Source of the DNA: Actinomycetota bacterium | GTDB lineage: Bacteria > Actinomycetota > UBA4738 | Direction of reading: 5' to 3' | NCBI GenBank assembly: GCA_036395815.1 | Contig: DASWCX010000229.1 | Coordinates: forward strand, 1-30,766 | DNA length: 30,766 bases | Shown: piece after piece, positions 4,038 through 28,139 of the stretch | Layout: every line of letters begins with the position of its first letter | Numbering within the stretch: position 1 is the first letter of the stretch | The notes under the pieces: generated by a model | Seen by the model: the letters and a program-made list of their open reading frames with translations, nothing else | The model's database searches: none | Told to the model about the DNA's origin: nothing | Position numbers and translations under genes: made by a program

Positions 4038-5225
4038 GTGAAGGTCGGAGCGGGTCTCTCCACGCTCTCGGATCCCCGGGAAGCGGCCATCGAGGCGACG
4101 GCGACCGCGTGCGGGGGGCTCGATGGCGAGCGGCCGGATCTGGCGCTGGTGTTCGCGTCGCCGCATCACGCCGCGGAGGCTCGGGCCGTGCTCGACGCGG
4201 TCCACGAGCGGGCCAACCCGCGAGGAGTCATCGGGTGCGTGGCGGAGGCCGTGGTGGGCGGGGCGCGGGAGGTCGAACGCGAACCGGCGCTCTCGGTGTG
4301 GCTGGGCGCCCTCCCCGGCGGAGCCGAGACCTTTCACATGGAGTTCCTGCCGACGGACGGCGGCGGCGCCTTCGCCGGCTGGGTGGTCGACGCCCGCGGA
4401 CAGCCGGACGGCACCGTGCTGTTGGTGTGCGATCCGTTCACCTTCCCGGCGGACCTGTTCCTCCAGCATCTCAACGAACGCATCCCGGGCACGCCCGTCG
4501 TCGGGGGCATGGCGAGCGGAGGGATCGAGCCGGGACAGACGGTGCTGTTCCACGACCGGGAGGTGCTCCGCTCGGGTGCGGTCGGCGCCAGGCTTCCCGG
4601 AGCCGTCTCGGTGCAGACCCTCGTGTCGCAGGGTTGCCGGCCCATCGGGCAGTCCCTGGTTGTGACCAGGGCCGAGGACAACGTGCTGTTCGAGCTGGGG
4701 GGCCGGCCGCCGCTCGAACGGCTGAAGGAGACGGTGAACGCGCTGGCCTCACCGGACCGCGACCTCCTGTCGCGTGGCCTGCACCTCGGGCGGGTGATCG
4801 ACGAATACAAGACCGAATACGGCACGGGCGACTTCCTGATCCGGGGGGTGGTGGGCGCGGACCCGGACTCGGGGGCCATCGCCGTCGGCGACCACCTGGA
4901 GGTCGGGCAGACCGTACAGTTCCACGTCCGCGACGCGGCCACCGCCGACGAGGAGCTCAGGACCCTCCTCGAGGACTCGGCGTCGGCCCGCTCCGGTTCT
5001 GCCGCGGGGGCCCTCCTGTTCACCTGCAACGGCCGGGGGAGCCGGCTGTTCACCACGCCGGACCACGACGCCCGGATGGTCTCGTCCTATCTGGAGGGTG
5101 CCCCGGTGGCCGGGTTCTTCTGCGCCGGCGAGCTGGGACCGGTGGGAGGCAAGAACTTCCTCCACGGGTTCACCGCCAGCGTGGTGGTCTTCGTCGACCG
5201 GGCTACCTCGACTGCCAACCGCTGA
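4038..5225 (+). CDS. FIST N/C domain protein (NosP-like sensor)
   Basis: 395 aa. Motifs PVVGGMASGG, VSQGCRPIG, LLFTCNGRG and GFFCAGELGP...LHGFT. TACCCT -10 box 6 nt before the GTG. Confidence 0.88.
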   Translation: MKVGAGLSTLSDPREAAIEATATACGGLDGERPDLALVFASPHHAAEARAVLDAVHERANPRGVIGCVAEAVVGGAREVEREPALSVWLGALPGGAETFHMEFLPTDGGGAFAGWVVDARGQPDGTVLLVCDPFTFPADLFLQHLNERIPGTPVVGGMASGGIEPGQTVLFHDREVLRSGAVGARLPGAVSVQTLVSQGCRPIGQSLVVTRAEDNVLFELGGRPPLERLKETVNALASPDRDLLSRGLHLGRVIDEYKTEYGTGDFLIRGVVGADPDSGAIAVGDHLEVGQTVQFHVRDAATADEELRTLLEDSASARSGSAAGALLFTCNGRGSRLFTTPDHDARMVSSYLEGAPVAGFFCAGELGPVGGKNFLHGFTASVVVFVDRATSTANR

Positions 5226-22254: not shown

Positions 22255-24438
22255 TCAGGGCCCCAGCCTGGCCTCCACACAGCAGACCCCGTCCACCTGG
22301 ACCGGGGTGATCCCGGCCTCGGCGTCGGCGTTCGGGATCTGGATGCTCGCGCTCTGCTTGCGGGCGAAGGTGAACGCCGACAGGCTCTCCAGGAGCGACC
22401 CGTCGGCAGGGTTCCCCACGAGCGTTCGTGGCACCACGATCTCCCAGTAGTCGAACCCCGGACCGTGCTTCAAGGTGGCCGACACGGCGGTTCCGCCGTT
22501 CCCGGGGCCTCCGTAATCGACCACGTGCGGGTCGCAGGCCGAGACGGAGCACAGGTCGATCGAGGTCGCCGTGCCGGCGAAGGCCTGGGTGACCCCGCCG
22601 GGCAGCGCCTCGACCGCGGCGTAGTAGATGGGGTTCTCCAGCCCCTGCACGGGATCATCGACGGACTGCCCGATCCACCGGACCACGAAGTCGACGGCCC
22701 CCGCGCCGGTGGCGGTCAGGGCGTGGCCCAGGTCGGCCAGCGAGGAGGTCCCGAGGTCGATCACCACATTGGCCCCGGACGAGCGGACCCGAACCACCCT
22801 GATGTCGAGCTCCGGCACGTTGTCGGGACCGTAGACGGGGTCGAACAGCGCGTCGCCCGAGGGGTCCTTCATCGCGGTGCCGGTGGCGGGCGGCCCGGTC
22901 ACCTTCGTTCCGAACATGCTGATGCCGCGGTTCTGCTTCACCAGCATGACGGCGGGGGCGCCCGGATGATCCAGTGTCTGGACCGGCGGAGGGGCGTCGG
23001 CCTGGAGGAGCTGGTTCGAGGTGTCGTTGTAGACGATCTCGAGCGCACCGGTCGCCGGGTCGACGCCGTCCTGGAAGAAGTCGGCCATGTTGCGGTTGCC
23101 CTGCACCGCGATGCAGCCCGTCCCCTCCAGGCAGATGGTGCCGTAGTGGTTCGGATGCCGGGTGACCTGGATCTGGTGCAGGGACGGAGCCGACGTGTCG
23201 GCGCCGGTGATCACGTTGGCGTAGACGAACCACGGCTGGTGGGCGTCGGTCTGGCTCGGATCGTCGGTGGCGTCGGCCGTGCCGTAGTACACGATGGCGA
23301 TGCGACCGGCGGCGCCCGCCGTGATCCAGGGCATGACGTTCGCCGCGGCCGGCCCCGAGCTGATCTTCAGGGGCGTCGACCACTGGGTCCATCCGGTGGC
23401 CGCGGACGCGTGCGAGTACCAGATCTGCCAGTAGTCGGGGTCCTCGCTGGCCGAATGGCCGGAGGCTCTGGTCACCCACGTCACGTAGGCGTTCCGGGCC
23501 GAATCCATGGCGATCACGGGGAACAGGCCGCGGGCGTCGGTCTCCGCCGGAAGGGTGGCGATGGGGATCGTCTGCGACTTCGTGAGGGCGGGATCGCCGG
23601 GGTTCCCCGGGTCGCGCGAGTAGAGGATGAGGCCGATGTCAGAGAGGCCGGTGAGCCCGGCTGCCTCAAGCACGTCGCCGGTCTGTTGGTCGACGGCGAT
23701 GTTCCCATCGAGCCCGATGGGGACGCTCTCGGTGGGTCCCGTGTAGTTCAGGCCGTCGGTCGAGTAGGCCGCCCCCTCGCCGGTGCCGGCCACCTCCAGG
23801 TAGATCAGGTAGTTCACGGGCAGCGGGCCCGTGTAGTTGGACGGACGGGCCGCCGGATCCCATGTGGCAAACCATTGCCGGTCGATGCCGTTGTTGTCCG
23901 GATCGCTGCTGGTGTAGACGCCCTGGCCCATGGTCTTGGTGGCGTCGTCCCACGTGGCCGTCTTCAGGGCCTCCAGCGCGGCCAGGTCCGCGTAGTAGAC
24001 GGTGCCGGTGTTTCCCAGGCCGTGGTCGTCGATTGACAGCTCCGTGTCCCCGCCTCCCACGCACTGCGCCGCGGGGACCGGGCACGGGATCTGGCTGTCG
24101 GACTGGGCCGCGGTAGTGATCGGCGGGTTGTGGAGGGGCCGGAACGTGCGGCCGCCGTCCGCCGAGATGTTCCAGATGCTGCGCTGCGTGCCGGTGCCCC
24201 AGGGGCCACTGGCGTACACTCGGCCGTCGTCGGCGCTGATCCTCACGTCGGGCTCTCCGTACGCGTGCACCGGATCCACCACCGCGGGGCTGGAGAAGCC
24301 GATGCCGCTGGTGGCGAGGGCGTGCCGGGCGATAGCTCCGGCCCGGGGGGCCCCGGTCAGCCCCAGGGTGAGGATGGCCGCCGCGGCCGCGACCCCGGCC
24401 CGCCTGATACGTGGCTTCCCGTTCGACCGACCATCCAC
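22255..24438 (-). CDS. Large secreted protein with BNR/Asp-box (sialidase-like propeller) motifs
   Basis: AAGGAGG RBS then GTG at 24438, followed by a basic-then-hydrophobic signal peptide. Contains GEPDVRI, Asp-box SADGGRTF, GGGDTEL, YSTDG and AAGRIAIVYYG. Substrate unknown. Confidence 0.7.
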   Translation of the reverse strand: MDGRSNGKPRIRRAGVAAAAAILTLGLTGAPRAGAIARHALATSGIGFSSPAVVDPVHAYGEPDVRISADDGRVYASGPWGTGTQRSIWNISADGGRTFRPLHNPPITTAAQSDSQIPCPVPAAQCVGGGDTELSIDDHGLGNTGTVYYADLAALEALKTATWDDATKTMGQGVYTSSDPDNNGIDRQWFATWDPAARPSNYTGPLPVNYLIYLEVAGTGEGAAYSTDGLNYTGPTESVPIGLDGNIAVDQQTGDVLEAAGLTGLSDIGLILYSRDPGNPGDPALTKSQTIPIATLPAETDARGLFPVIAMDSARNAYVTWVTRASGHSASEDPDYWQIWYSHASAATGWTQWSTPLKISSGPAAANVMPWITAGAAGRIAIVYYGTADATDDPSQTDAHQPWFVYANVITGADTSAPSLHQIQVTRHPNHYGTICLEGTGCIAVQGNRNMADFFQDGVDPATGALEIVYNDTSNQLLQADAPPPVQTLDHPGAPAVMLVKQNRGISMFGTKVTGPPATGTAMKDPSGDALFDPVYGPDNVPELDIRVVRVRSSGANVVIDLGTSSLADLGHALTATGAGAVDFVVRWIGQSVDDPVQGLENPIYYAAVEALPGGVTQAFAGTATSIDLCSVSACDPHVVDYGGPGNGGTAVSATLKHGPGFDYWEIVVPRTLVGNPADGSLLESLSAFTFARKQSASIQIPNADAEAGITPVQVDGVCCVEARLGP

Positions 24439-24510
24439 GACGTTCCCTCCTTCATGAGCGCAGGCGTCGATACGCGTGGTTCCCCGGACCGGAGGCCCAG
24501 TGGCCGGCAC

Positions 24511-24540
24511 ATGATGTACTAGTCCGAGATAACTAGTCAA
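24511..24540 (-). promoter_or_regulatory. Putative sigma-A-type promoter of the secreted BNR gene, with two ACTAGT cores
   Basis: Minus strand TTGACT (24540-24535)-N18-CATCAT (24516-24511). ACTAGT occurs at 24518-24523 and 24532-24537. Confidence 0.5.
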
Positions 24541-24545
24541 ACCGA
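24538..24545 (+). repeat. 8-bp target site duplication, left copy (CAAACCGA)
   Basis: Identical to 27364-27371; both copies directly abut the inverted repeats. Confidence 0.95.
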
Positions 24546-24575
24546 GGGAAGTATCAAACACGAGCACGTACGTGC
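24546..24575 (+). repeat. Right terminal inverted repeat (IRR)
   Basis: GGGAAGTATCAA-ACACGAG-CACGTACGTGC; 22/30 identical to IRL in two conserved blocks. Confidence 0.92.
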
Positions 24576-24578
24576 TCG
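24555..24578 (-). terminator. Perfect 18-bp palindrome with U-rich tail on the minus strand, probable intrinsic terminator inside the IS right end
   Basis: CGAGCACGTACGTGCTCG (24561-24578), followed on the minus strand by TGTTTG. Confidence 0.55.
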
Positions 24579-24595
24579 ATAACTAGTCAGGCCGG
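24578..24595 (+). repeat. Internal 18-nt near-copy of the insertion-site flank (24528-24545)
   Basis: GATAACTAGTCAGGCCGG versus GATAACTAGTCAAACCGA: 15/18 identical, first 12 nt perfect. Confidence 0.9.
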
Positions 24596-24638
24596 TTTCA
24601 CACCGGGTCGAGCAGCAGAGGGTTCTCGCGGCCTGGTC

Positions 24639-24872
24639 TCAGGGGACCCTTTGACCTCGACGAGTCACCGTGCGCTGGTGAATCACCTCTGCATCCGGAG
24701 CCCAGCGAATGACCTGGCGCACGTCTTGCTCGCACTCAGCTGGGCTGCTGAAGCTGTTGACCGACTCGGCTACGGGGTCGTGCTCGTCCCGAAAGAGCAC
24801 CCAGCGCCAGGGGAACAGGTCGTCGAGGGTCTTCCCCTTCCAGTAGACGTAGAAGAACGGGTCTTCGGCCAT
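24639..24872 (-). CDS. YegP/DUF1508-like small protein (IS passenger)
   Basis: GGGAGGTGA RBS then ATG at 24872. FYVY...WRWVL...VAESVNSFSSPAECEQDV..V...APDA resembles the DUF1508 pattern; recognised by eye only. Confidence 0.6.
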   Translation of the reverse strand: MAEDPFFYVYWKGKTLDDLFPWRWVLFRDEHDPVAESVNSFSSPAECEQDVRQVIRWAPDAEVIHQRTVTRRGQRVP

Positions 24873-24938
24873 CGTCCTCACCTCCCGCACCCGATTGAAA
24901 CACACGCGTCACGCTGGCCCGTTTGCCAAGCCAGGAGG

Positions 24939-25088
24939 TCAGTCCTTCGGGCCCGTTGGAGGGTTCCGCCTGCTACCGCGCCAGCCCTTCGACTCCCGCT
25001 CGAACTCGATCATCCGGGCGTAGTCCCGAACCGTCCACTTGAAGCGTGGGGACCAGTGCCGGTACTTCCGCGTGTACCGCTTTCGCAT
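24939..25088 (-). CDS. 49-aa Arg/Lys- and aromatic-rich peptide (IS passenger)
   Basis: GAGGAGG RBS at 25094-25100. Sequence MRKRYTRKYRHWSPRFKWTVRDYARMIEFERESKGWRGSRRNPPTGPKD. Below the ORF-track size cutoff. Confidence 0.6.
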   Translation of the reverse strand: MRKRYTRKYRHWSPRFKWTVRDYARMIEFERESKGWRGSRRNPPTGPKD

Positions 25089-25130
25089 GGCGACCTCCTC
25101 GGCCCGGGCTCGTCCCGGATAGGAGGTGCC
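25089..25130 (-). promoter_or_regulatory. Hairpin sequestering the SD of the 49-aa ORF
   Basis: 5'-GGCACCUCCU-AU-CCGGG-ACGAG-CCCGG-GCCG-AGGAGGUCGCC-AUG: 10-bp outer stem with one bulge plus a 5-bp inner stem. Confidence 0.65.
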
Positions 25131-25201
25131 AGGAGGGATAGCGGCTCGTCACGGCTCCTGAGCCTACCCGAAAGGGGGCGAGGCTAGGTGCTGCGTGTCT
25201 C

Positions 25202-26032
25202 TCAGCCCCCGAATTTCCAGAGAATCTTTTTGATCTCAGTGGCCATATCCTGCAAGGTAGGGATGACGGCGGTTCCAACATCTTGGAACCCTACCGTCGG
25301 GGTGAACTGAGCGTGCATAGCCACCTCGTCGTAGCTGACATCCGCAGGCAAAGGAGAGCGAAGGATGAACGTTACGAGGTGTGCGTTCGCTTTCAGCGGT
25401 TCACGCGGAGTCCCCATAGGGACGGTGCTTTCAACGACGCCCGGCGATGTGCGATAGCTGCCCGGCCGCAGAATGGTGACGAGCACGGTCCGGTGTTTGT
25501 CGACGCGCAGAAGCGTTTTGAGCACCATGAGCGGGCCGGGGGGGATCGGCAGGTTGAGATAGAGCCGATTCCGGAAGAACCAGCTTTGCTGCCGACTCTT
25601 GTACGGCTGGAATGGCGAGAGCATCAAGAGGCGATGCTTGGAGACGCCCGGCAGCTCCCTCCGCCGCACATTCGCCAGGAAATCTTTTCGGGTCGTTGCG
25701 TAGAGGGGGAAGTAGATGGCTCGCAGCTGCTTCTCGTTGAGCTGTCGTTTGGAGGGCACCAACTCCCAGGCCAGATGATCAAGAGCGGCCCCGAAGTTGG
25801 TGAGCACGTCACCAATGAGCAGGCTCCATTCTCGCTTGATCGGCTTGACGTGGGTGGAGAAGAGTTCGAGCCGGTCTGGGTGCGTTTTGAGTTCGTACCT
25901 ACGACCGAGGGCGGGCACACCATCGGGGCCACCGTTGGCCCACGAGGTTATGTCTCCTTCGAGTTCTTTCAGATGGTGTTCGGCCCGCCCCAGCTTCGCT
26001 CTACTGCTGGACAGGTCAAGGCGGTGACTCAT
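25202..26032 (-). CDS. Uncharacterised protein, possibly HEPN-like (IS passenger)
   Basis: 276 aa with SRAKLGRAEHHL, WSLLIGDVLTNFGAALDHLAWEL, IYFP, PFQPY and LRVDKHR. The HEPN assignment is inferred from the DKHR motif and helical layout. Confidence 0.75.
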   Translation of the reverse strand: MSHRLDLSSSRAKLGRAEHHLKELEGDITSWANGGPDGVPALGRRYELKTHPDRLELFSTHVKPIKREWSLLIGDVLTNFGAALDHLAWELVPSKRQLNEKQLRAIYFPLYATTRKDFLANVRRRELPGVSKHRLLMLSPFQPYKSRQQSWFFRNRLYLNLPIPPGPLMVLKTLLRVDKHRTVLVTILRPGSYRTSPGVVESTVPMGTPREPLKANAHLVTFILRSPLPADVSYDEVAMHAQFTPTVGFQDVGTAVIPTLQDMATEIKKILWKFGG

Positions 26033-26053
26033 GGCGCGTAGACTGGAGGCACG

Positions 26054-26200
26054 ATGCCAAAGCGAAACGGGAAGCGGTCACTCGTCCGCGAGGGCGAGCC
26101 GAGCCAGCGCACGAAGCAAGGGCTCGAAATCCCCATCGTCAAGACCGAGGACTTCGACCGGCTGCTACGCAAGGCTGCTAGGAAGCGTCGGGCGAAGTAG
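26054..26200 (+). CDS. 48-aa basic small protein (IS passenger, opposite strand to the transposase)
   Basis: GGAGG RBS at 26045-26049. Sequence MPKRNGKRSLVREGEPSQRTKQGLEIPIVKTEDFDRLLRKAARKRRAK. Below the ORF-track cutoff. Confidence 0.65.
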   Translation: MPKRNGKRSLVREGEPSQRTKQGLEIPIVKTEDFDRLLRKAARKRRAK

Positions 26201-26378
26201 TCGAGCTTCGACGGACTCGCCTGGCTTTCCACACGATAAGCCCACCGATGAGCAAGACAACGAGGCGCAACGCGATCGCCCACCAGGGCAAGGCTCGCAC
26301 GAACGTCAGGACAACCAGCCCGGCTACGGACAGCCAGAAGGCGCCTTCCGCCCACGGGGGAATCGGCCGCAGCCTCAT
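26178..26378 (-). CDS. 66-aa two-TM small membrane protein (IS passenger)
   Basis: ATG immediately follows the transposase TAG. Two hydrophobic helices followed by a basic tail (KARRVRR). Confidence 0.55.
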   Translation of the reverse strand: MRLRPIPPWAEGAFWLSVAGLVVLTFVRALPWWAIALRLVVLLIGGLIVWKARRVRRSSTTSPDAS

Positions 26379-27314
26379 CTATGCCTTCGCGATCCGATGC
26401 AGGAACGCGTTGAACATCCCACCGGGCTCGTCCCGATGGTTGTACCGGAAGGCATACTCGTCCAAGTAGGACTGAAGATGCTTGGTCGAGACCGAGTGGT
26501 ACGTCCCACGGATGCCACTCTTGAGCAGCGACCAGAAGCCCTCGATGGTGTTCACGTGGACATCCCCATCCACGTAGATCGCCTGCGAGTGGTTCACCCG
26601 CTGGTGCTCGTAGCCCTGGCCCTTGAGCGCGTTGTACGCGTTCCCCTCGTCCGTGTAGACGGTGGACGCGGGCAGCACCTTGGTCTTGATGTGCGGCAGC
26701 ACGGACGAAGTGCTGGCCGCTGGGATCGCCTTCGCCACGACCTTGCCGGACTTCCCGTTAGCTCCGCGCTGGGCCATCCCGAACACCGGGGTCTTGGACG
26801 AGAACGCGGTGTCGTGGCCGCGCTTGGCAGCGTGCTTCCACTTGTTCGCCCCGCCGATGTAAGCCTCGTCGGCTTCGATGGTTCCATCGAGCATCGGGTC
26901 GCCTTGGTCGAGCAGCGACCGGATCTGCCGGAACATCCGAAGTGCCGTCGGGTAGGACACCCCGACCTCGCGCTCCAATTGCTTCGCGGAGATTCCGCAC
27001 CGAGTGCTCGCCATCAAGAACATCCCGTAGAACCAGAGCTTGAGCGAGGTGGACGACCCCTCGAAGATGGTGCCCTTCATCGGGTACTCGTGCCGTCCGC
27101 AGAACTGGCACGCGTAGGCGGGGCGTTTGGCGAGCCGGTGGTGCTTCGTCACCTTCCCGCACTTGGGGCAGAAGATGCCGTCCGGGTAGAGCATCCCGAC
27201 AAGCTCGTCCAAGCAGGCGGCGTCGTTCGGGAAGCGAGCCTCGAAGTCGAACACAGTGGTCGTCGCGTCCGAAGACTTCGCGTTCTTCGGCTGGTTCCGG
27301 TCTGTCTTGCCCAT
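26379..27314 (-). CDS. IS1595-family DDE transposase
   Basis: N-terminal Zn ribbon CPKC...CQFC, HTH region GISAKQLEREVGVSYPTA, and catalytic motifs IEADEAYIGG, VYTDE, VNHS, HVNTIEGFWSLLK, YLDEYAFRYN. Start placed at ATG 27314 on the basis of the promoter. Confidence 0.96.
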   Translation of the reverse strand: MGKTDRNQPKNAKSSDATTTVFDFEARFPNDAACLDELVGMLYPDGIFCPKCGKVTKHHRLAKRPAYACQFCGRHEYPMKGTIFEGSSTSLKLWFYGMFLMASTRCGISAKQLEREVGVSYPTALRMFRQIRSLLDQGDPMLDGTIEADEAYIGGANKWKHAAKRGHDTAFSSKTPVFGMAQRGANGKSGKVVAKAIPAASTSSVLPHIKTKVLPASTVYTDEGNAYNALKGQGYEHQRVNHSQAIYVDGDVHVNTIEGFWSLLKSGIRGTYHSVSTKHLQSYLDEYAFRYNHRDEPGGMFNAFLHRIAKA

Positions 27315-27320
27315 AGAGGT

Positions 27321-27350
27321 AGTATAAGCCGACGCAAGTACGTGTGTCAA
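27321..27350 (-). promoter_or_regulatory. Near-consensus transposase promoter giving a leaderless mRNA
   Basis: TTGACA (27350-27345)-N18-TATACT (27326-27321)-6 nt-ATG. The -35 lies inside IRL. Confidence 0.8.
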
Positions 27351-27363
27351 CTTGATACTTCCC
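27334..27363 (-). repeat. Left terminal inverted repeat (IRL)
   Basis: Minus strand GGGAAGTATCAA-GTTGACA-CACGTACTTGC. Confidence 0.92.
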
Positions 27364-27371
27364 CAAACCGA
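27364..27371 (+). repeat. 8-bp target site duplication, right copy (CAAACCGA)
   Basis: Identical to 24538-24545. Confidence 0.95.
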
Positions 27372-27380
27372 GCCAGGCAG

Positions 27381-28139
27381 CTACTGCGCCTCGCGGCCGT
27401 GGACGGTGGGCCTCGTGGGCTGGCCCTCCGCTCCGTCCTTCCCTCCGAGGATCTCCACGATGGACTCGATCACCTGCTCGGGGCTGTCGCAGATGCGGAA
27501 GAGCTCCAGATCCTTCGGGGCGACCGTCCCCTGGGCCAGAACCGGCGAGTGGAGCCAGTCGAGGAGGCCGGCCCAGTACGCCGACCCGTACAAGATGACC
27601 GGGAAGTGCTGGACCTTGCCGGTCTGGATCAGGGTGAGGGACTCGAACAGCTCGTCGAGGGTGCCGAACCCGCCCGGGAACACCACGAACCCCTCCGCGT
27701 ACTTGACGAACATCGTCTTGCGCACGAAGAAGTAGTTGAAGTCGAGCAGCAGGTTCAGGTACGGGTTGGCCACCTGTTCGAACGGCAGCTCGATGTTGCA
27801 CCCGATGGAGAAGCCGCCCCCTTCCTGACAGCCCCGGTTGGCGGCCTCCATGACCCCGGGGCCTCCCCCGGTGATGACGGCGAACCCGGCCTCGGCCAGC
27901 TGCCGCCCCACGGTCCGGGCCGTCTCGTACATCGGATCGTCCCGGCCGATCCTGGCCGAGCCGAACAGGCTGATGGCGGGCGGGATGGCCGCCAGCTGGG
28001 TGAAGCCGTCCACGAACTCGGACAGGATCCTGAGCGCTCGCCAGGGGTCGGTGCCGACGAAGGTGTTGTCGCGGCGTTCGAGCAGCGCCCGGTCGGCGTT
28101 CGCCTGCTCCCTGCGGCCCCTGCGAGCGGAGTGGGTCAC
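27381..28139 (-). CDS. LOG-family (TIGR00730-like) nucleotide phosphoribohydrolase
   Basis: DPWRALRILSEF, ISLFGSAR, ITGGGPGVMEAANRG, FFVRKTMF and PGGFGTLDEL. GATAAT -10-like box 6 nt before GTG 28139; the start could be up to 28172. Confidence 0.92.
   Translation of the reverse strand: MTHSARRGRREQANADRALLERRDNTFVGTDPWRALRILSEFVDGFTQLAAIPPAISLFGSARIGRDDPMYETARTVGRQLAEAGFAVITGGGPGVMEAANRGCQEGGGFSIGCNIELPFEQVANPYLNLLLDFNYFFVRKTMFVKYAEGFVVFPGGFGTLDELFESLTLIQTGKVQHFPVILYGSAYWAGLLDWLHSPVLAQGTVAPKDLELFRICDSPEQVIESIVEILGGKDGAEGQPTRPTVHGREAQ

What the first reader, a model, noticed from the sequence alone, without database searches (positions are those of the whole stretch)
24546..27363. Complete, apparently recent IS1595 transporter element with five passenger ORFs and asymmetric, dual-purpose ends
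Boundaries are fully resolved (IRs, perfect TSD, intact DDE transposase). About two thirds of the 2,818 bp is cargo, and two cargo ORFs fall below the ORF-track cutoff. The IRs share a 12-bp outer block and an 11-bp inner block, but the 7 bp between them differ completely: in IRL they hold the TTGACA -35 of the transposase promoter, and in IRR they help form the palindrome. The end sequence resembles the ISNwi/ISSod11 groups as I recall them. It may be an undescribed IS.
Basis: partly seen in the sequence, partly recalled or inferred. Interest (0 to 1): 0.65.

Follow-up and report, generated by a model that had tools for sequence, protein, structure and literature searches.

The report
Cargo-carrying IS1595 jumping gene, promoter-targeted
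This is a real, intact 2.8-kb jumping gene of the known IS1595 "transporter IS" kind in a soil bacterium; most of its "cargo" is a conserved gene pair that travels with related elements, and both sites where it is found lie 5 bases upstream of the same kind of host promoter.

Summary
Observation confirmed. Window 24546-27363 is a 2,818-bp element with two-block inverted repeats and a perfect 8-bp target duplication (CAAACCGA). It encodes an intact IS1595-type zinc-ribbon/DDE transposase (311 aa; D149, D222, E258, K265). The promoter's -35 lies inside the transposase-side repeat (IRL), and a hairpin lies inside the other repeat (IRR).

It moves as a unit. A near-identical copy sits at a second site in other soil metagenomes, with its own perfect duplication (TCGACTTG). 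Ten relatives of 2.3-4.7 kb also have perfect 8-bp duplications.

Two corrections:
- "Cargo" is partly a misnomer. The 48-aa and 276-aa genes form a divergent cassette that recurs beside related transposases across the phylum.
- "Recent" holds only relatively. The insertion here is shared by strains whose flanks differ by about 2.5%.

Both known sites share TCGnnTTG|ACTAG, 5 bp upstream of a TTGACT -35 box, in the same orientation. The element carries TGACTAG near the end that abuts the target. With only two sites, targeting is suggestive, not proven. A guide-like copy of the target is not supported.

The 276-aa protein has no Pfam, PDB or defence-library match.

Verdict: a new member of a known kind (IS1595 transporter IS). 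This scan has noted many such elements on other DNA, some also beside promoters or operators. ISfinder could not be searched.

The parts
24511..24540 (-). Putative host promoter of the downstream secreted 727-aa gene (TTGACT-18-CATCAT). The element sits 5 bp upstream of its -35 box, and the duplicated 8-mer contains the TTG of that box.
   Evidence: 9/12 match. Same architecture at site B and at contig C414 of the same genome.
24538..24545 (.). Target-site duplication, left copy (CAAACCGA)
   Evidence: read directly. Identical to 27364-27371.
24546..24575 (+). IRR, the end far from the transposase: outer block 24546-24557, unshared 7 bp 24558-24564, inner block 24565-24575 (contains the 10-bp palindrome CACGTACGTG)
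   Evidence: pair I15. The two-block pattern GGGAAsTATCAA-N7-CACGTA recurs at ends of related elements.
24561..24578 (-). 18-bp perfect palindrome forming a hairpin at the 3' end of the minus-strand cargo transcripts, followed by UGUUUGAUAC; inferred terminator or insulator
   Evidence: terminator-like site; stable 3' hairpin, z = -2.4. The function is inferred.
24578..24589 (+). Internal GATAACTAGTCA, identical to host bases 24528-24539. Its 7-nt core (TGACTAG on the other strand) is also present in the second target.
   Evidence: D7; only these two exact copies in the genome.
24639..24872 (-).
   Evidence: PF07411 E=3.9e-4, 20.7 bits, just under the 22-bit cut-off. DUF1508 genes lie in related elements L063 and L064. 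Called as 77 aa in 9 assemblies.
24939..25088 (-). 49-aa basic ORF behind GAGGAGG. It resembles the N-terminus of a 117-aa ORF in related element L053.
   Evidence: 49% identity over 37 aa; a variant copy keeps the frame, with 6 synonymous-only and 9 replacement codons.
25202..26032 (-). 276-aa protein of a large uncharacterised family; partner of the 48-aa gene
   Evidence: 1,643 representatives at E<=1e-3; AlphaFold pLDDT 90, pTM 0.88; no match; two unnamed phage proteins.
26054..26200 (+). 48-aa basic protein (family motif G-L-E-I-P-V-P), divergent from the 276-aa gene with 21 bp between start codons; conserved GGAGG before the ATG
   Evidence: over 20 homologues, six invariant columns in a 17-sequence alignment: M1, Q18, T20, G23, I26, P27; 18 of 19 places beside a 276-aa family gene.
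26178..26378 (-). 66-aa ORF with two hydrophobic helices; its ATG abuts the transposase stop (TAGATG). Unique to this element, so the weakest of the five.
   Evidence: (GC3 0.78); no homologue in any related locus; cluster of one.
26379..27314 (-). IS1595-family transposase, 311 aa: N-terminal zinc ribbon, helix-turn-helix region, catalytic D149, D222, E258 and K265
27321..27350 (-). Transposase promoter TTGACA-18-TATACT; the -35 box lies in the unshared 7 bp of IRL, and the ATG follows 6 nt after the -10 box
   Evidence: 11/12. GTTGACA at the same place in IRL of L021, L036, L040, L043, L048 and L053.
27334..27363 (-). IRL, the transposase-side end: outer block 27352-27363, middle 27345-27351, inner block 27334-27344
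27364..27371 (.). Target-site duplication, right copy (CAAACCGA), 9 bp after the stop codon of the LOG-family gene

Best explanation
Window 24546-27363 is an intact transporter IS (an insertion sequence carrying extra genes) of the IS1595 family.

**How it moves.** A zinc-ribbon/DDE transposase binds the two-block terminal repeats and inserts the whole 2.8-kb unit, making an 8-bp duplication. This is shown by perfect duplications at two independent sites.

**What the ends do.**
- The transposase-side end (IRL) holds the -35 box of a near-consensus promoter for a probably leaderless transposase mRNA. Transposase bound at this end should therefore repress its own gene. This is inferred from what is established for other IS.
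- The far end (IRR) holds a hairpin that probably stops the minus-strand cargo transcripts from running into the host promoter right next to it (inferred).

**What it carries.**
- The 48-aa and 276-aa genes are a divergent two-gene cassette that belongs to this clade of elements. The usual layout is transposase, then the small gene converging on it, then the large gene. This association is shown.
- My best guess for the cassette is a regulator or antidote paired with an effector, that is, an addiction or phage-defence type module that pays for the element's keep. I hold this at about 40%. It is inferred from the RNase, DUF3800 and methylase-nuclease passenger genes of sister elements and from an R-x4-H motif in the 276-aa family.
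- The DUF1508-like, 49-aa and 66-aa ORFs are looser additions.

**Where it lands.** It seems to choose its target. Both known sites read TCGnnTTG|ACTAG, 5 bp upstream of a TTGACT -35 box, with IRR next to the promoter. Two sites make this suggestive only.
For: **Boundaries, repeats and duplication:**

**Transposase:** domains; invariant D149, D222, E258 and K265 across 12 clade members.

**Promoter and hairpin:**

**Composition:** the element has 59-65% GC and the flanks 68-74%.

**Second site**
- IRR-side contigs L099, L100 and L101 and IRL-side contig L104 all show TCGACTTG next to the element tips. L099 and L104 come from the same sample.
- Outside one 120-bp patch, the cargo half differs by at most 2 SNPs in about 1.4 kb between the two sites.

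**Relatives:** ten elements of 2,275-4,724 bp have perfect 8-bp duplications.

**Cassette linkage**
- 18 of 19 places found with the small gene alone lie beside a 276-aa family gene, and 14 of 19 have an IS1595 transposase within 1.5 kb.
- Close homologues P0006, P0007 and P0011 show the same layout.

**Passenger genes of relatives:** NYN RNase-like, DUF3800, DUF6941, HTH_66/DUF433, and an N6/N4 methylase fused to an Mrr nuclease.

**Target**
- TTGACTAG occurs only 3 times in the 2.48-Mb genome.
- Both sites have the same offset and orientation.

**Literature:** transporter IS are a recognised class, currently restricted to the IS1595 and IS66 families (bioRxiv 10.1101/2021.05.26.445724; PMC3129680 citing Siguier et al. 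2009).
Against: - There is only one copy in this 81%-complete draft genome.
- No empty site was found: none in 4 soil runs, and relatives from other genera lack the gene order.
- Target preference rests on two sites.
- The hairpin's U-tract is poor, and the minimum-energy fold uses it in the stem.
- The function of the cassette is untested. The window's 276-aa protein has glycine where 62 of 69 relatives have the motif arginine, so it may be inactive.
- ISfinder could not be searched, so the element may already have a name.
- The 66-aa ORF has no homologue anywhere.
Confidence: 0.88

Rival explanations
1. The 48-aa/276-aa cassette is not selfish or defence cargo. It is a transposition accessory, for example a small DNA-binding protein and partner that regulate the transposase or pick the target.
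For: - The small gene converges on the transposase gene and in most relatives overlaps its 3' end.
- The cassette is kept in the same place across a clade whose transposases differ by 40-50%.
- The element shows a target preference that needs some recognition device.
Against: - About 16 of 29 family loci sampled across the phylum show no transposase or small gene within 1.5 kb.
- The family also occurs in phage genomes.
- Sister elements L020, L021, L030, L055 and L058 transposed with perfect duplications without this cassette.
Confidence: 0.2
2. The internal 18-nt near-copy of the target (24578-24595 against 24528-24545) is a guide that directs insertion by base pairing. This is the reading of a companion first-stage note.
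For: - 12 of 12 bases are identical, then 3 of 6, with all differences A to G.
- This 12-mer occurs nowhere else in the genome.
- Longest-shared-word test: p of about 0.007 against random 48-mers from the same window sequence.
Against: - At site B the same unchanged internal sequence faces a target that shares only the 7-nt core TGACTAG, about 10 of 18 positions.
- None of 9 related complete elements holds an internal copy of its own target.
- No known RNA family matches anywhere in the element.
Confidence: 0.04
3. It is not one unit. A short transposase-only IS lies next to host DNA that happens to end in a solo repeat, and the 8-bp match is a relic.
For: Cargo-free IS1595 members are about 0.7-1.2 kb (from memory of ISfinder). 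The 66-aa region between the transposase and the small gene is unique to this element.
Against: - The whole unit, including the DUF1508-like gene at its far end, is found at a second site with its own perfect duplication on both sides.
- GC content is low across the whole 2.8 kb.
- No repeat-like sequence lies just downstream of the transposase.
Confidence: 0.02
4. The likeness of sites A and B does not reflect sequence recognition. It reflects a regional bias, such as open or protein-bound promoter DNA of one regulon, or plain chance.
For: - Only two sites are known.
- Both lie upstream of secreted-protein genes whose promoters look alike (TTGACTAG, 8-9 nt, ACTAGT), so a bound host regulator could be the real landmark.
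- Other clade members sit in or beside operator-like palindromes.
Against: The insertion point is identical to the base relative to an 11-position motif, and the orientation is the same. For a random second hit this is below about 1e-5. A look-alike site in this genome (contig C414, TCGTCTTGACTAG) is empty, so occupancy is not automatic.
Confidence: 0.25

Closest known systems
Transporter IS (tIS) of the IS1595 family: the ISfinder '+' groups, ISNwi1+ and ISPna2+, and ISNha5 (Siguier, Gagnevin & Chandler 2009, cited in PMC3129680; TnCentral preprint 10.1101/2021.05.26.445724)
   Same: - One zinc-ribbon/DDE transposase of the IS1595 type.
- Short terminal inverted repeats and an 8-bp duplication.
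- Passenger genes inside the repeats, moved as one unit.
- Size 2.8 kb, within the 1.5-7.9 kb range I recall for these groups.
   Different: - The sequence is new as far as I could search: at most about 70% amino-acid identity to any transposase in one genome per species, and at most 43% in annotated plasmids.
- Part of the 'cargo' is a clade-wide two-gene cassette.
- Both known insertions are at the same base of a promoter motif.
- I found no paper in the held library describing target choice in this family. ISfinder itself was not searched.
ISNwi1 and ISSod11 subgroups of IS1595 (end consensus and catalytic residues as I recall them from ISfinder; not tested)
   Same: - The ends GGGAAGTATC resemble ggnnatTAT (ISNwi1) and nnnGcnTATC (ISSod11).
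- D-D-E-K residues fit ISNwi1 (DDEK) rather than ISSod11 (DDHK).
   Different: Subgroup membership needs an alignment or tree with ISfinder reference transposases, which were not available here.
IS elements whose terminal repeat holds the transposase promoter (general IS biology, e.g. IS1, IS10, IS911)
   Same: The -35 box lies inside the transposase-side repeat, so the end-binding transposase can shut off its own promoter.
   Different: - Here the -35 box occupies exactly the 7 bp that are not shared between the two ends, sandwiched between two shared blocks.
- The same 7 bp at the other end are part of a hairpin.
- Autoregulation is inferred, not shown.
Earlier notes of this scan on other genomes (AI notes): IS1595 tIS landing just upstream of -35 boxes (e1-4639908) or in DnaA-box or LexA-box neighbourhoods (e1-1219354, e1-2062353, e1-3958925), and a clade with a conserved small gene plus an exchangeable toxin-type gene (e1-4033597)
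   Same: Promoter- or operator-proximal insertion at a fixed offset, and a small conserved gene beside a variable effector-like gene.
   Different: - The motifs, offsets and hosts differ.
- No sequence likeness to those windows was found with the small protein.
- Only 3 of 180 shared words were found with the transposase.

Membership tests
IS1595 family of insertion sequences | Transposase with the IS1595-type DDE catalytic domain | tested here: met
   PF12762 E=5.6e-45 over 153/153 profile positions. NCBIfam NF033547, 198.6 bits against a cut-off of 75.
IS1595 family of insertion sequences | N-terminal zinc-ribbon domain | tested here: met
   PF12760 E=7.6e-9, 35.8 bits against a cut-off of 25.4. 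C49, C69 and C72 are invariant in 12 clade members.
IS1595 family of insertion sequences | Intact catalytic D, D, E (or N/H) with K/R seven residues after the third | tested here: met
   D149, D222, E258 and K265 are invariant in the alignment of 12 transposases.
IS1595 family of insertion sequences | Terminal inverted repeats and an 8-bp target duplication | tested here: met
   Repeat blocks of 12 bp and 10/11 bp. Perfect 8-bp duplications at site A, at site B and in 10 relatives.
ISNwi1(+) subgroup | End consensus ggnnatTAT and DDEK signature (recalled from ISfinder); clustering with ISNwi1 reference transposases | not testable with these tools
   The ends GGGAAGTAT and the D-D-E-K residues are compatible, but no ISfinder reference sequences were available. 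The resemblance is from memory.
Transporter IS (tIS) | Genes unrelated to transposition lie between the repeats and move with the transposase as one unit | tested here: met
   The same element, including its far-end genes, is found at two sites, each with its own duplication.
New IS by ISfinder naming rule (below 95% DNA or 98% protein identity to a listed IS; rule recalled from memory) | No listed IS above the threshold | not testable with these tools
   ISfinder is not available. Proxy results: at most 43% amino-acid identity in 72,556 plasmids, and about 67-70% at best in one genome per species and in metagenome contigs outside its own population.
HEPN-type RNases (considered for the 276-aa protein) | Match to a HEPN profile or fold | tested here: not met
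   - No Pfam hit for it or for 68 relatives.
- No PADLOC or PHROGs hit.
- No PDB match by sequence profile or by Foldseek with a pLDDT-90 model (best E = 1.2).
- Foldseek can miss small helical domains.
HEPN-type RNases (considered for the 276-aa protein) | R-x4-6-H catalytic motif | tested here: inconclusive
   The family has N79-x-R81-x4-H86 (R in 62/69, H in 56/69). The window's protein has G81, the only glycine among the 69.
DUF1508 (YegP-like) small proteins (considered for the 77-aa ORF) | Score above Pfam's gathering cut-off | tested here: inconclusive
   20.7 bits against a cut-off of 22. Genes carrying PF07411 lie in related elements L063 and L064.
Toxin-antitoxin or defence module (considered for the 48-aa/276-aa pair) | Toxicity of one partner relieved by the other, or protection from phage | not testable with these tools
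   Only the tight divergent pairing and the defence-type cargo of sister elements point this way.

The most novel reading that the evidence does not exclude
This IS1595 clade includes elements that pick specific promoter or operator motifs as landing sites. This element inserts at TCGnnTTG|ACTAG, 5 bp upstream of a TTGACT -35 box. It may get there because a DNA-binding protein (the transposase, the 48-aa protein or a host regulator) recognises the same TGACTAG core in the element's own subterminal IRR region and in the target, tethering that end to the site. The conserved 48-aa/276-aa cassette would then be either the targeting device or an addiction or defence module of a fold not yet seen in the PDB.
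Probability: 0.25. Interest if true: 0.72.

Novelty: new member of a known kind. Interest (0 to 1): 0.45.

Why it matters
The element itself is an ordinary, if well preserved, example of a known class. Three side results could matter.

1. **A natural safe-landing system.** A DDE transposase family usually treated as unselective may contain lineages that land at a fixed base next to promoters without destroying them. This would bear on how IS shape gene regulation.

2. **A portable gene pair worth testing.** A 276-aa protein family has about 1,600 sequence clusters and a confident predicted fold, but no Pfam or PDB relative. It travels with a 48-aa partner on these elements and in phages, which marks it as a candidate new defence or addiction module.

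3. **Scale of the clade.** Eleven complete elements (this one plus ten relatives) with different passenger genes (RNase-like, DUF3800, methylase-nuclease) show that soil Actinomycetota hold a sizeable, undescribed clade of transporter IS that shuttles small defence-type genes.

Tried and rejected
- **Other copies in the same genome:** none.
- **Empty site:**
  - Relatives from other genera keep the LOG gene but not the neighbouring 727-aa gene, so no orthologous empty site exists there.
  - Four soil runs gave no contig skipping the element. One 93%-identical contig departs from the window exactly after the duplication (27372), but I could not fetch it.
  - The site B flank is not in this draft genome.
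- **Guide idea:** rejected as a family feature and by site B.
- **Function of the 276-aa protein:** Pfam, NCBIfam, PADLOC, PHROGs, PDB sequence profile, Foldseek against PDB, and ESM Atlas named clusters all came back empty. Foldseek against viral models gave two unnamed proteins.
- **Function of the 48-aa protein:** no Pfam hit for 9 family members.
- **RNA families:** none in the element.
- **Literature:** nothing on ISNwi1 ends or on IS1595 target choice in the held library.
- **Word-index homologue search for the 276-aa protein:** only 3 weak hits. The exhaustive search was needed.
- **Contig L106:** only 4 bp of flank, so it adds no new site.

Full report
**1. What is in the sequence**

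I read 24300-27600 directly.
- The left end starts at 24546 with GGGAAGTATCAA, then ACACGAG, then CACGTACGTGC.
- The reverse complement of the right end, from 27363, reads GGGAAGTATCAA, then GTTGACA, then CACGTACTTGC.
- So the outer block matches 12/12 (also, pair I15), all seven middle bases differ, and the inner block matches 10/11.
- CAAACCGA lies immediately outside both tips, at 24538-24545 and 27364-27371.

The minus-strand ORF 26379-27350 matches the following:

| Model | Result |
|---|---|
| Pfam DDE_Tnp_IS1595 | E=5.6e-45, full-length |
| Pfam Zn_ribbon_IS1595 | E=7.6e-9 |
| NCBIfam IS1595 transposase | 198.6 bits, cut-off 75 |

In an alignment with 11 clade relatives, D149, D222, E258 and K265 are invariant, and K265 lies seven residues after E258. 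Three zinc-ribbon cysteines and a helix-turn-helix stretch are also invariant.

A promoter scan finds TTGACA-18-TATACT (11/12) at 27350..27321 on the minus strand. The ATG at 27314 follows six bases after the -10 box. The transcript is therefore probably leaderless and the protein 311 aa. Gene callers in another assembly made the same call.

The -35 box is exactly the unshared 7-bp segment of IRL. GTTGACA sits at the same place in the IRL of L021, L036, L040, L043, L048 and L053.

At the other end, the unshared 7 bp are part of the perfect 18-bp palindrome at 24561-24578. This was flagged as terminator-like. The last 100 nt of the cargo transcript fold with a strong 3' hairpin, z = -2.4.

The element has 59-65% GC against 68-74% in the flanks.

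**2. It moves as a unit**

Only one copy is in this draft genome (2.48 Mb, 451 contigs, 81% complete).

Exact-protein look-ups found the same insertion at the same site in several other assemblies, at 97.7-99.8% identity:
- NCBI WNGE01006410.1, WNGF01048141.1 and WNFY01097504.1;
- JGI Ga0137372_10019176;
- one ENA contig.

A Logan contig (L027) holds the same element but ends 3 bp past its tip, so its site is not established.

SNP density inside the element is close to that of the flanks:

| Comparison | Element | Flank |
|---|---|---|
| L026 | 8 / 2,437 | 19 / 3,999 |
| L103 | 12 / 950 | 5 / 200 |

So the insertion predates the split of these strains. 'Recent' holds only in the sense that nothing has decayed.

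The same look-ups also gave contigs in which the element has a different flank (site B).
- On the IRR side, L099, L100 and L101 read tip|TCGACTTGACTAGCCCGACCGAACTAGTCACTATT, followed by a different secreted-protein gene.
- On the IRL side, L104 reads ...GAGCTCGACTTG|tip. L104 comes from the same ENA sample as L099.
- Site B therefore has its own perfect 8-bp duplication, TCGACTTG.
- Outside a 120-bp patch, the 1.5-kb cargo half differs by at most two SNPs between sites A and B.

This shows transposition of the whole 2.8-kb unit. It disposes of the idea that the left repeat is an unrelated solo end.

Two oddities remain.
- The L100/L101 copy carries 19 SNPs within 24932-25050, which is the 49-aa ORF. 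This looks like a patch acquired from a related element.
- Contig L105 has a site B flank that is 211/212 identical to L104, but its element differs at 50 of 1,072 positions. Either the same site was hit twice by variant elements, or one copy was replaced by recombination.

**3. The family**

A scan of public contigs for the two-block end pattern gave 32 loci. Pairing ends with flanking repeats gave ten further complete elements of 2,275-4,724 bp, each with a perfect 8-bp duplication:
- L015, L016, L017 and L020;
- L021;
- L030 (L047 is the same element);
- L053, L055 and L058.

L021 comes from genome G030, which is unpublished. Its size, its duplication CCAAATGG, its DUF6941 cargo and its palindromic target rest on that genome and may not be published without the depositors' permission.

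All of these elements are longer than a bare IS1595 member, so this is a clade of cargo carriers. The record titles of several loci name Actinomycetota or Acidimicrobiia genomes assembled from metagenomes.

Passenger genes of relatives, where recognisable:

| Locus | Passenger gene |
|---|---|
| L017 | NYN RNase-like protein |
| L020 | DUF3800 |
| L021 | DUF6941 |
| L053 | HTH_66/DUF433 protein |
| L053 | N6/N4 methylase fused to an Mrr-type nuclease |

Transporter IS are a recognised class, said to be restricted to the IS1595 and IS66 families (cites Siguier et al. 2009).

**4. The 'cargo' is partly a conserved cassette**

The 48-aa ORF (26054-26200, plus strand) has homologues next to the 3' end of the transposase gene in more than 20 related loci.
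- The core motif is G-L-E-I-P-V-P.
- A GGAGG sequence is conserved before the ATG.
- The C-terminal tails vary and often overlap the transposase gene on the other strand.

The 276-aa ORF (25202-26032, minus strand) starts 21 bp from the 48-aa ORF, in the divergent direction.
- It belongs to a family with 1,643 representatives at E<=1e-3, nearly all 250-300 aa.
- The family is found in 32 of 401 sampled genomes of the phylum.

To avoid ascertainment bias, I searched the same 401 genomes with the small-protein profile alone.
- 18 of 19 places outside this genome lie directly beside a 276-aa family gene.
- 14 of 19 have an IS1595 transposase, or a fragment of one, within 1.5 kb.
- In the reverse direction, 13 of 29 sampled 276-aa loci have the transposase or the small gene nearby.

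The three closest homologues show the same layout, two of them with a DUF1508 gene as well. Among complete elements, the window element, L015, L016 and L017 carry the cassette.

So the pair is a portable two-gene module that is a standing part of this IS clade.

The remaining three ORFs are looser additions.
- **77-aa ORF.** It scores just under the DUF1508 cut-off.
- **49-aa ORF.** It resembles the N-terminus of a 117-aa ORF in L053. It keeps its frame in the divergent patch, with 6 synonymous-only and 9 replacement codons.
- **66-aa ORF.** It codes for a two-helix hydrophobic protein, is coupled to the transposase stop (TAGATG), and has no homologue anywhere.

**5. What the 276-aa protein is**

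There is no match in Pfam, NCBIfam, PADLOC or PHROGs, either for it or for 68 relatives. A PDB sequence profile search also found nothing.

AlphaFold with a 69-sequence alignment gives a confident model (pLDDT 90, pTM 0.88).
- Foldseek finds nothing in the PDB (best E = 1.2).
- It finds two unnamed phage proteins in the viral library (E = 3.4e-12 and 4.9e-4).
- ESM Atlas neighbours are all unnamed and come mostly from Actinomycetota and phages.

The family's conserved residues are K13, G74-D75, N79, R81, L84-D85-H86, F108-P109, Q142-P143 and D178-K179-H180-R181. N-x-R-x4-H is reminiscent of the HEPN R-x4-6-H motif, which is what a companion first-stage note proposed. However, no profile or fold match supports membership. 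The window's protein is also the only one of 69 with glycine at the arginine position.

I therefore commit only weakly (about 40%) to an effector-plus-regulator module of the addiction or defence type. I give about 20% to a transposition accessory role.

**6. Target choice**

In the element's own orientation the two empty sites reconstruct as follows.

| Site | Reconstructed target |
|---|---|
| A | ...CTGGC TCGGTTTG ACTAGTTATCTCGGACTAGTACATCAT |
| B | ...CGAGC TCGACTTG ACTAGCCCGACCGAACTAGTCACTATT |

- Both sites share C-TCG-nn-TTG-ACTAG.
- In both, TTGACT is the -35 box of a promoter-like site, with ACTAGT in the spacer and a -10-like hexamer.
- In both, a GAAGGAGGGA-type ribosome site and a signal-peptide protein follow.
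- In both, IRR faces the promoter.

TTGACTAG occurs only three times in the 2.48-Mb genome. The third and fourth look-alike sites are on contigs C413 and C414. C414 reads TCGTCTTGACTAG and is unoccupied.

A random second insertion would match 11 specified positions at the same base and orientation with a probability well below 1e-5. Still, n = 2.

The element itself carries TGACTAGTTATC 33-44 nt inside the IRR tip.
- Site A shares all 12 nt. These are the only two exact copies in the genome.
- Site B shares only the 7-nt core.
- None of nine complete relatives has an internal copy of its target.

This speaks against a programmable guide. It leaves open a shared protein-binding site that tethers IRR to the target.

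Other clade members also sit in operator-like sequences.
- L021 (unpublished G030) and the L031/L032/L042 element abut CTTGACAnGTGACCAwwTGG.
- L017 sits in the centre of tandem TATGGCGCCATA palindromes.
- L053 and L039 lie 8-9 bp from another element's tip.

Earlier notes of this scan describe IS1595 transporter IS on other genomes that land next to -35 boxes, DnaA-box-like motifs or LexA boxes. These are unverified AI notes and not independent evidence, but they point the same way.

**7. Comparison and verdict**

The element meets every family feature I could test for IS1595, and it meets the definition of a transporter IS.
- The subgroup (ISNwi1+ is the best fit, from memory) and its ISfinder status could not be tested.
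- The nearest transposases are at most 43% identical in 72,556 plasmids. They are about 67-70% identical at best in representative genomes and metagenome contigs outside its own population.

It is a new member of a known kind. The conserved cassette and the apparent promoter-proximal targeting give it moderate extra interest.

Noticed in passing
window 24578-24589 and 24528-24539; L099-L101 flanks: The element holds TGACTAGTTATC 33-44 nt inside its IRR tip. Site A repeats all 12 nt just outside the tip, and site B repeats only the core TGACTAG. CTAGTCA occurs 13 times (both strands) in the whole 2.48-Mb genome.
   Followed up: partly
L099/L100/L101 (IRR side), L104/L105 (IRR-distal, IRL side): There is a second insertion site (B) with duplication TCGACTTG, upstream of another secreted-protein gene. 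In L105 the flank is 211/212 identical to L104, but the element differs by 4.7%. Either the site was hit twice or one copy was replaced by recombination.
   Followed up: partly
window 24932-25050 against L100:1024-1174: One copy of the element carries 19 SNPs packed into 120 bp (the 49-aa ORF) within an otherwise identical 1.5 kb. This is a mosaic patch, presumably from a related element.
   Followed up: partly
window 25790-25792 (codon 81 of the 276-aa ORF): The window's 276-aa protein has glycine where 62 of 69 family members have arginine, in the N-x-R-x4-H motif. It may be an inactivated copy.
   Followed up: partly
G000 contig C414:9495-9545 and C413:2815-2860: These are two more promoters of the TTGACTAG type in the same genome. 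C414 reads TCGTCTTGACTAG, a perfect look-alike of the two occupied targets, and is empty. They may form a small regulon with ACTAGT operator-like boxes.
   Followed up: partly
L053:1180-1212 (DAITPV010000007.1) and L039:735-768: The tip of one element (TGATAGTTCCC) lies 8-9 bp from the tip of the next (GGGAAC...). In L053 the 8 bp between them are the newcomer's duplication. Elements of this clade therefore land right beside another copy's end.
   Followed up: no
L021:2454-2473 and 4917-4936 (genome G030, unpublished); L031, L032, L042 flanks: Different family members abut the same 20-bp motif CTTGACAnGTGACCAwwTGG. This is a near-palindrome, GTGACCAAATGGTCAC, next to a -35-like TTGACA.
   Followed up: partly
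L017:40-70 and 2937-2960: This relative's 8-bp duplication TGGCGCCA is the centre of one of two tandem TATGGCGCCATA palindromes, an operator-like target.
   Followed up: no
window 22255-24444 (-): The downstream host gene encodes a 727-aa secreted protein with no NCBIfam hit. Its longest ORF (770 aa) runs 22 bp into the element, so an automatic annotation could mis-start it.
   Followed up: no
window 27525-27838: In four soil runs the contig depth rises more than ten-fold over a conserved part of the LOG-family gene. These are reads of many other organisms, not extra copies of this locus.
   Followed up: no
window 27372 (run X4, record 22): A 93%-identical contig matches the LOG gene end and departs from the window exactly after the right copy of the duplication. 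It may be an empty site in a relative. I could not fetch the contig.
   Followed up: no
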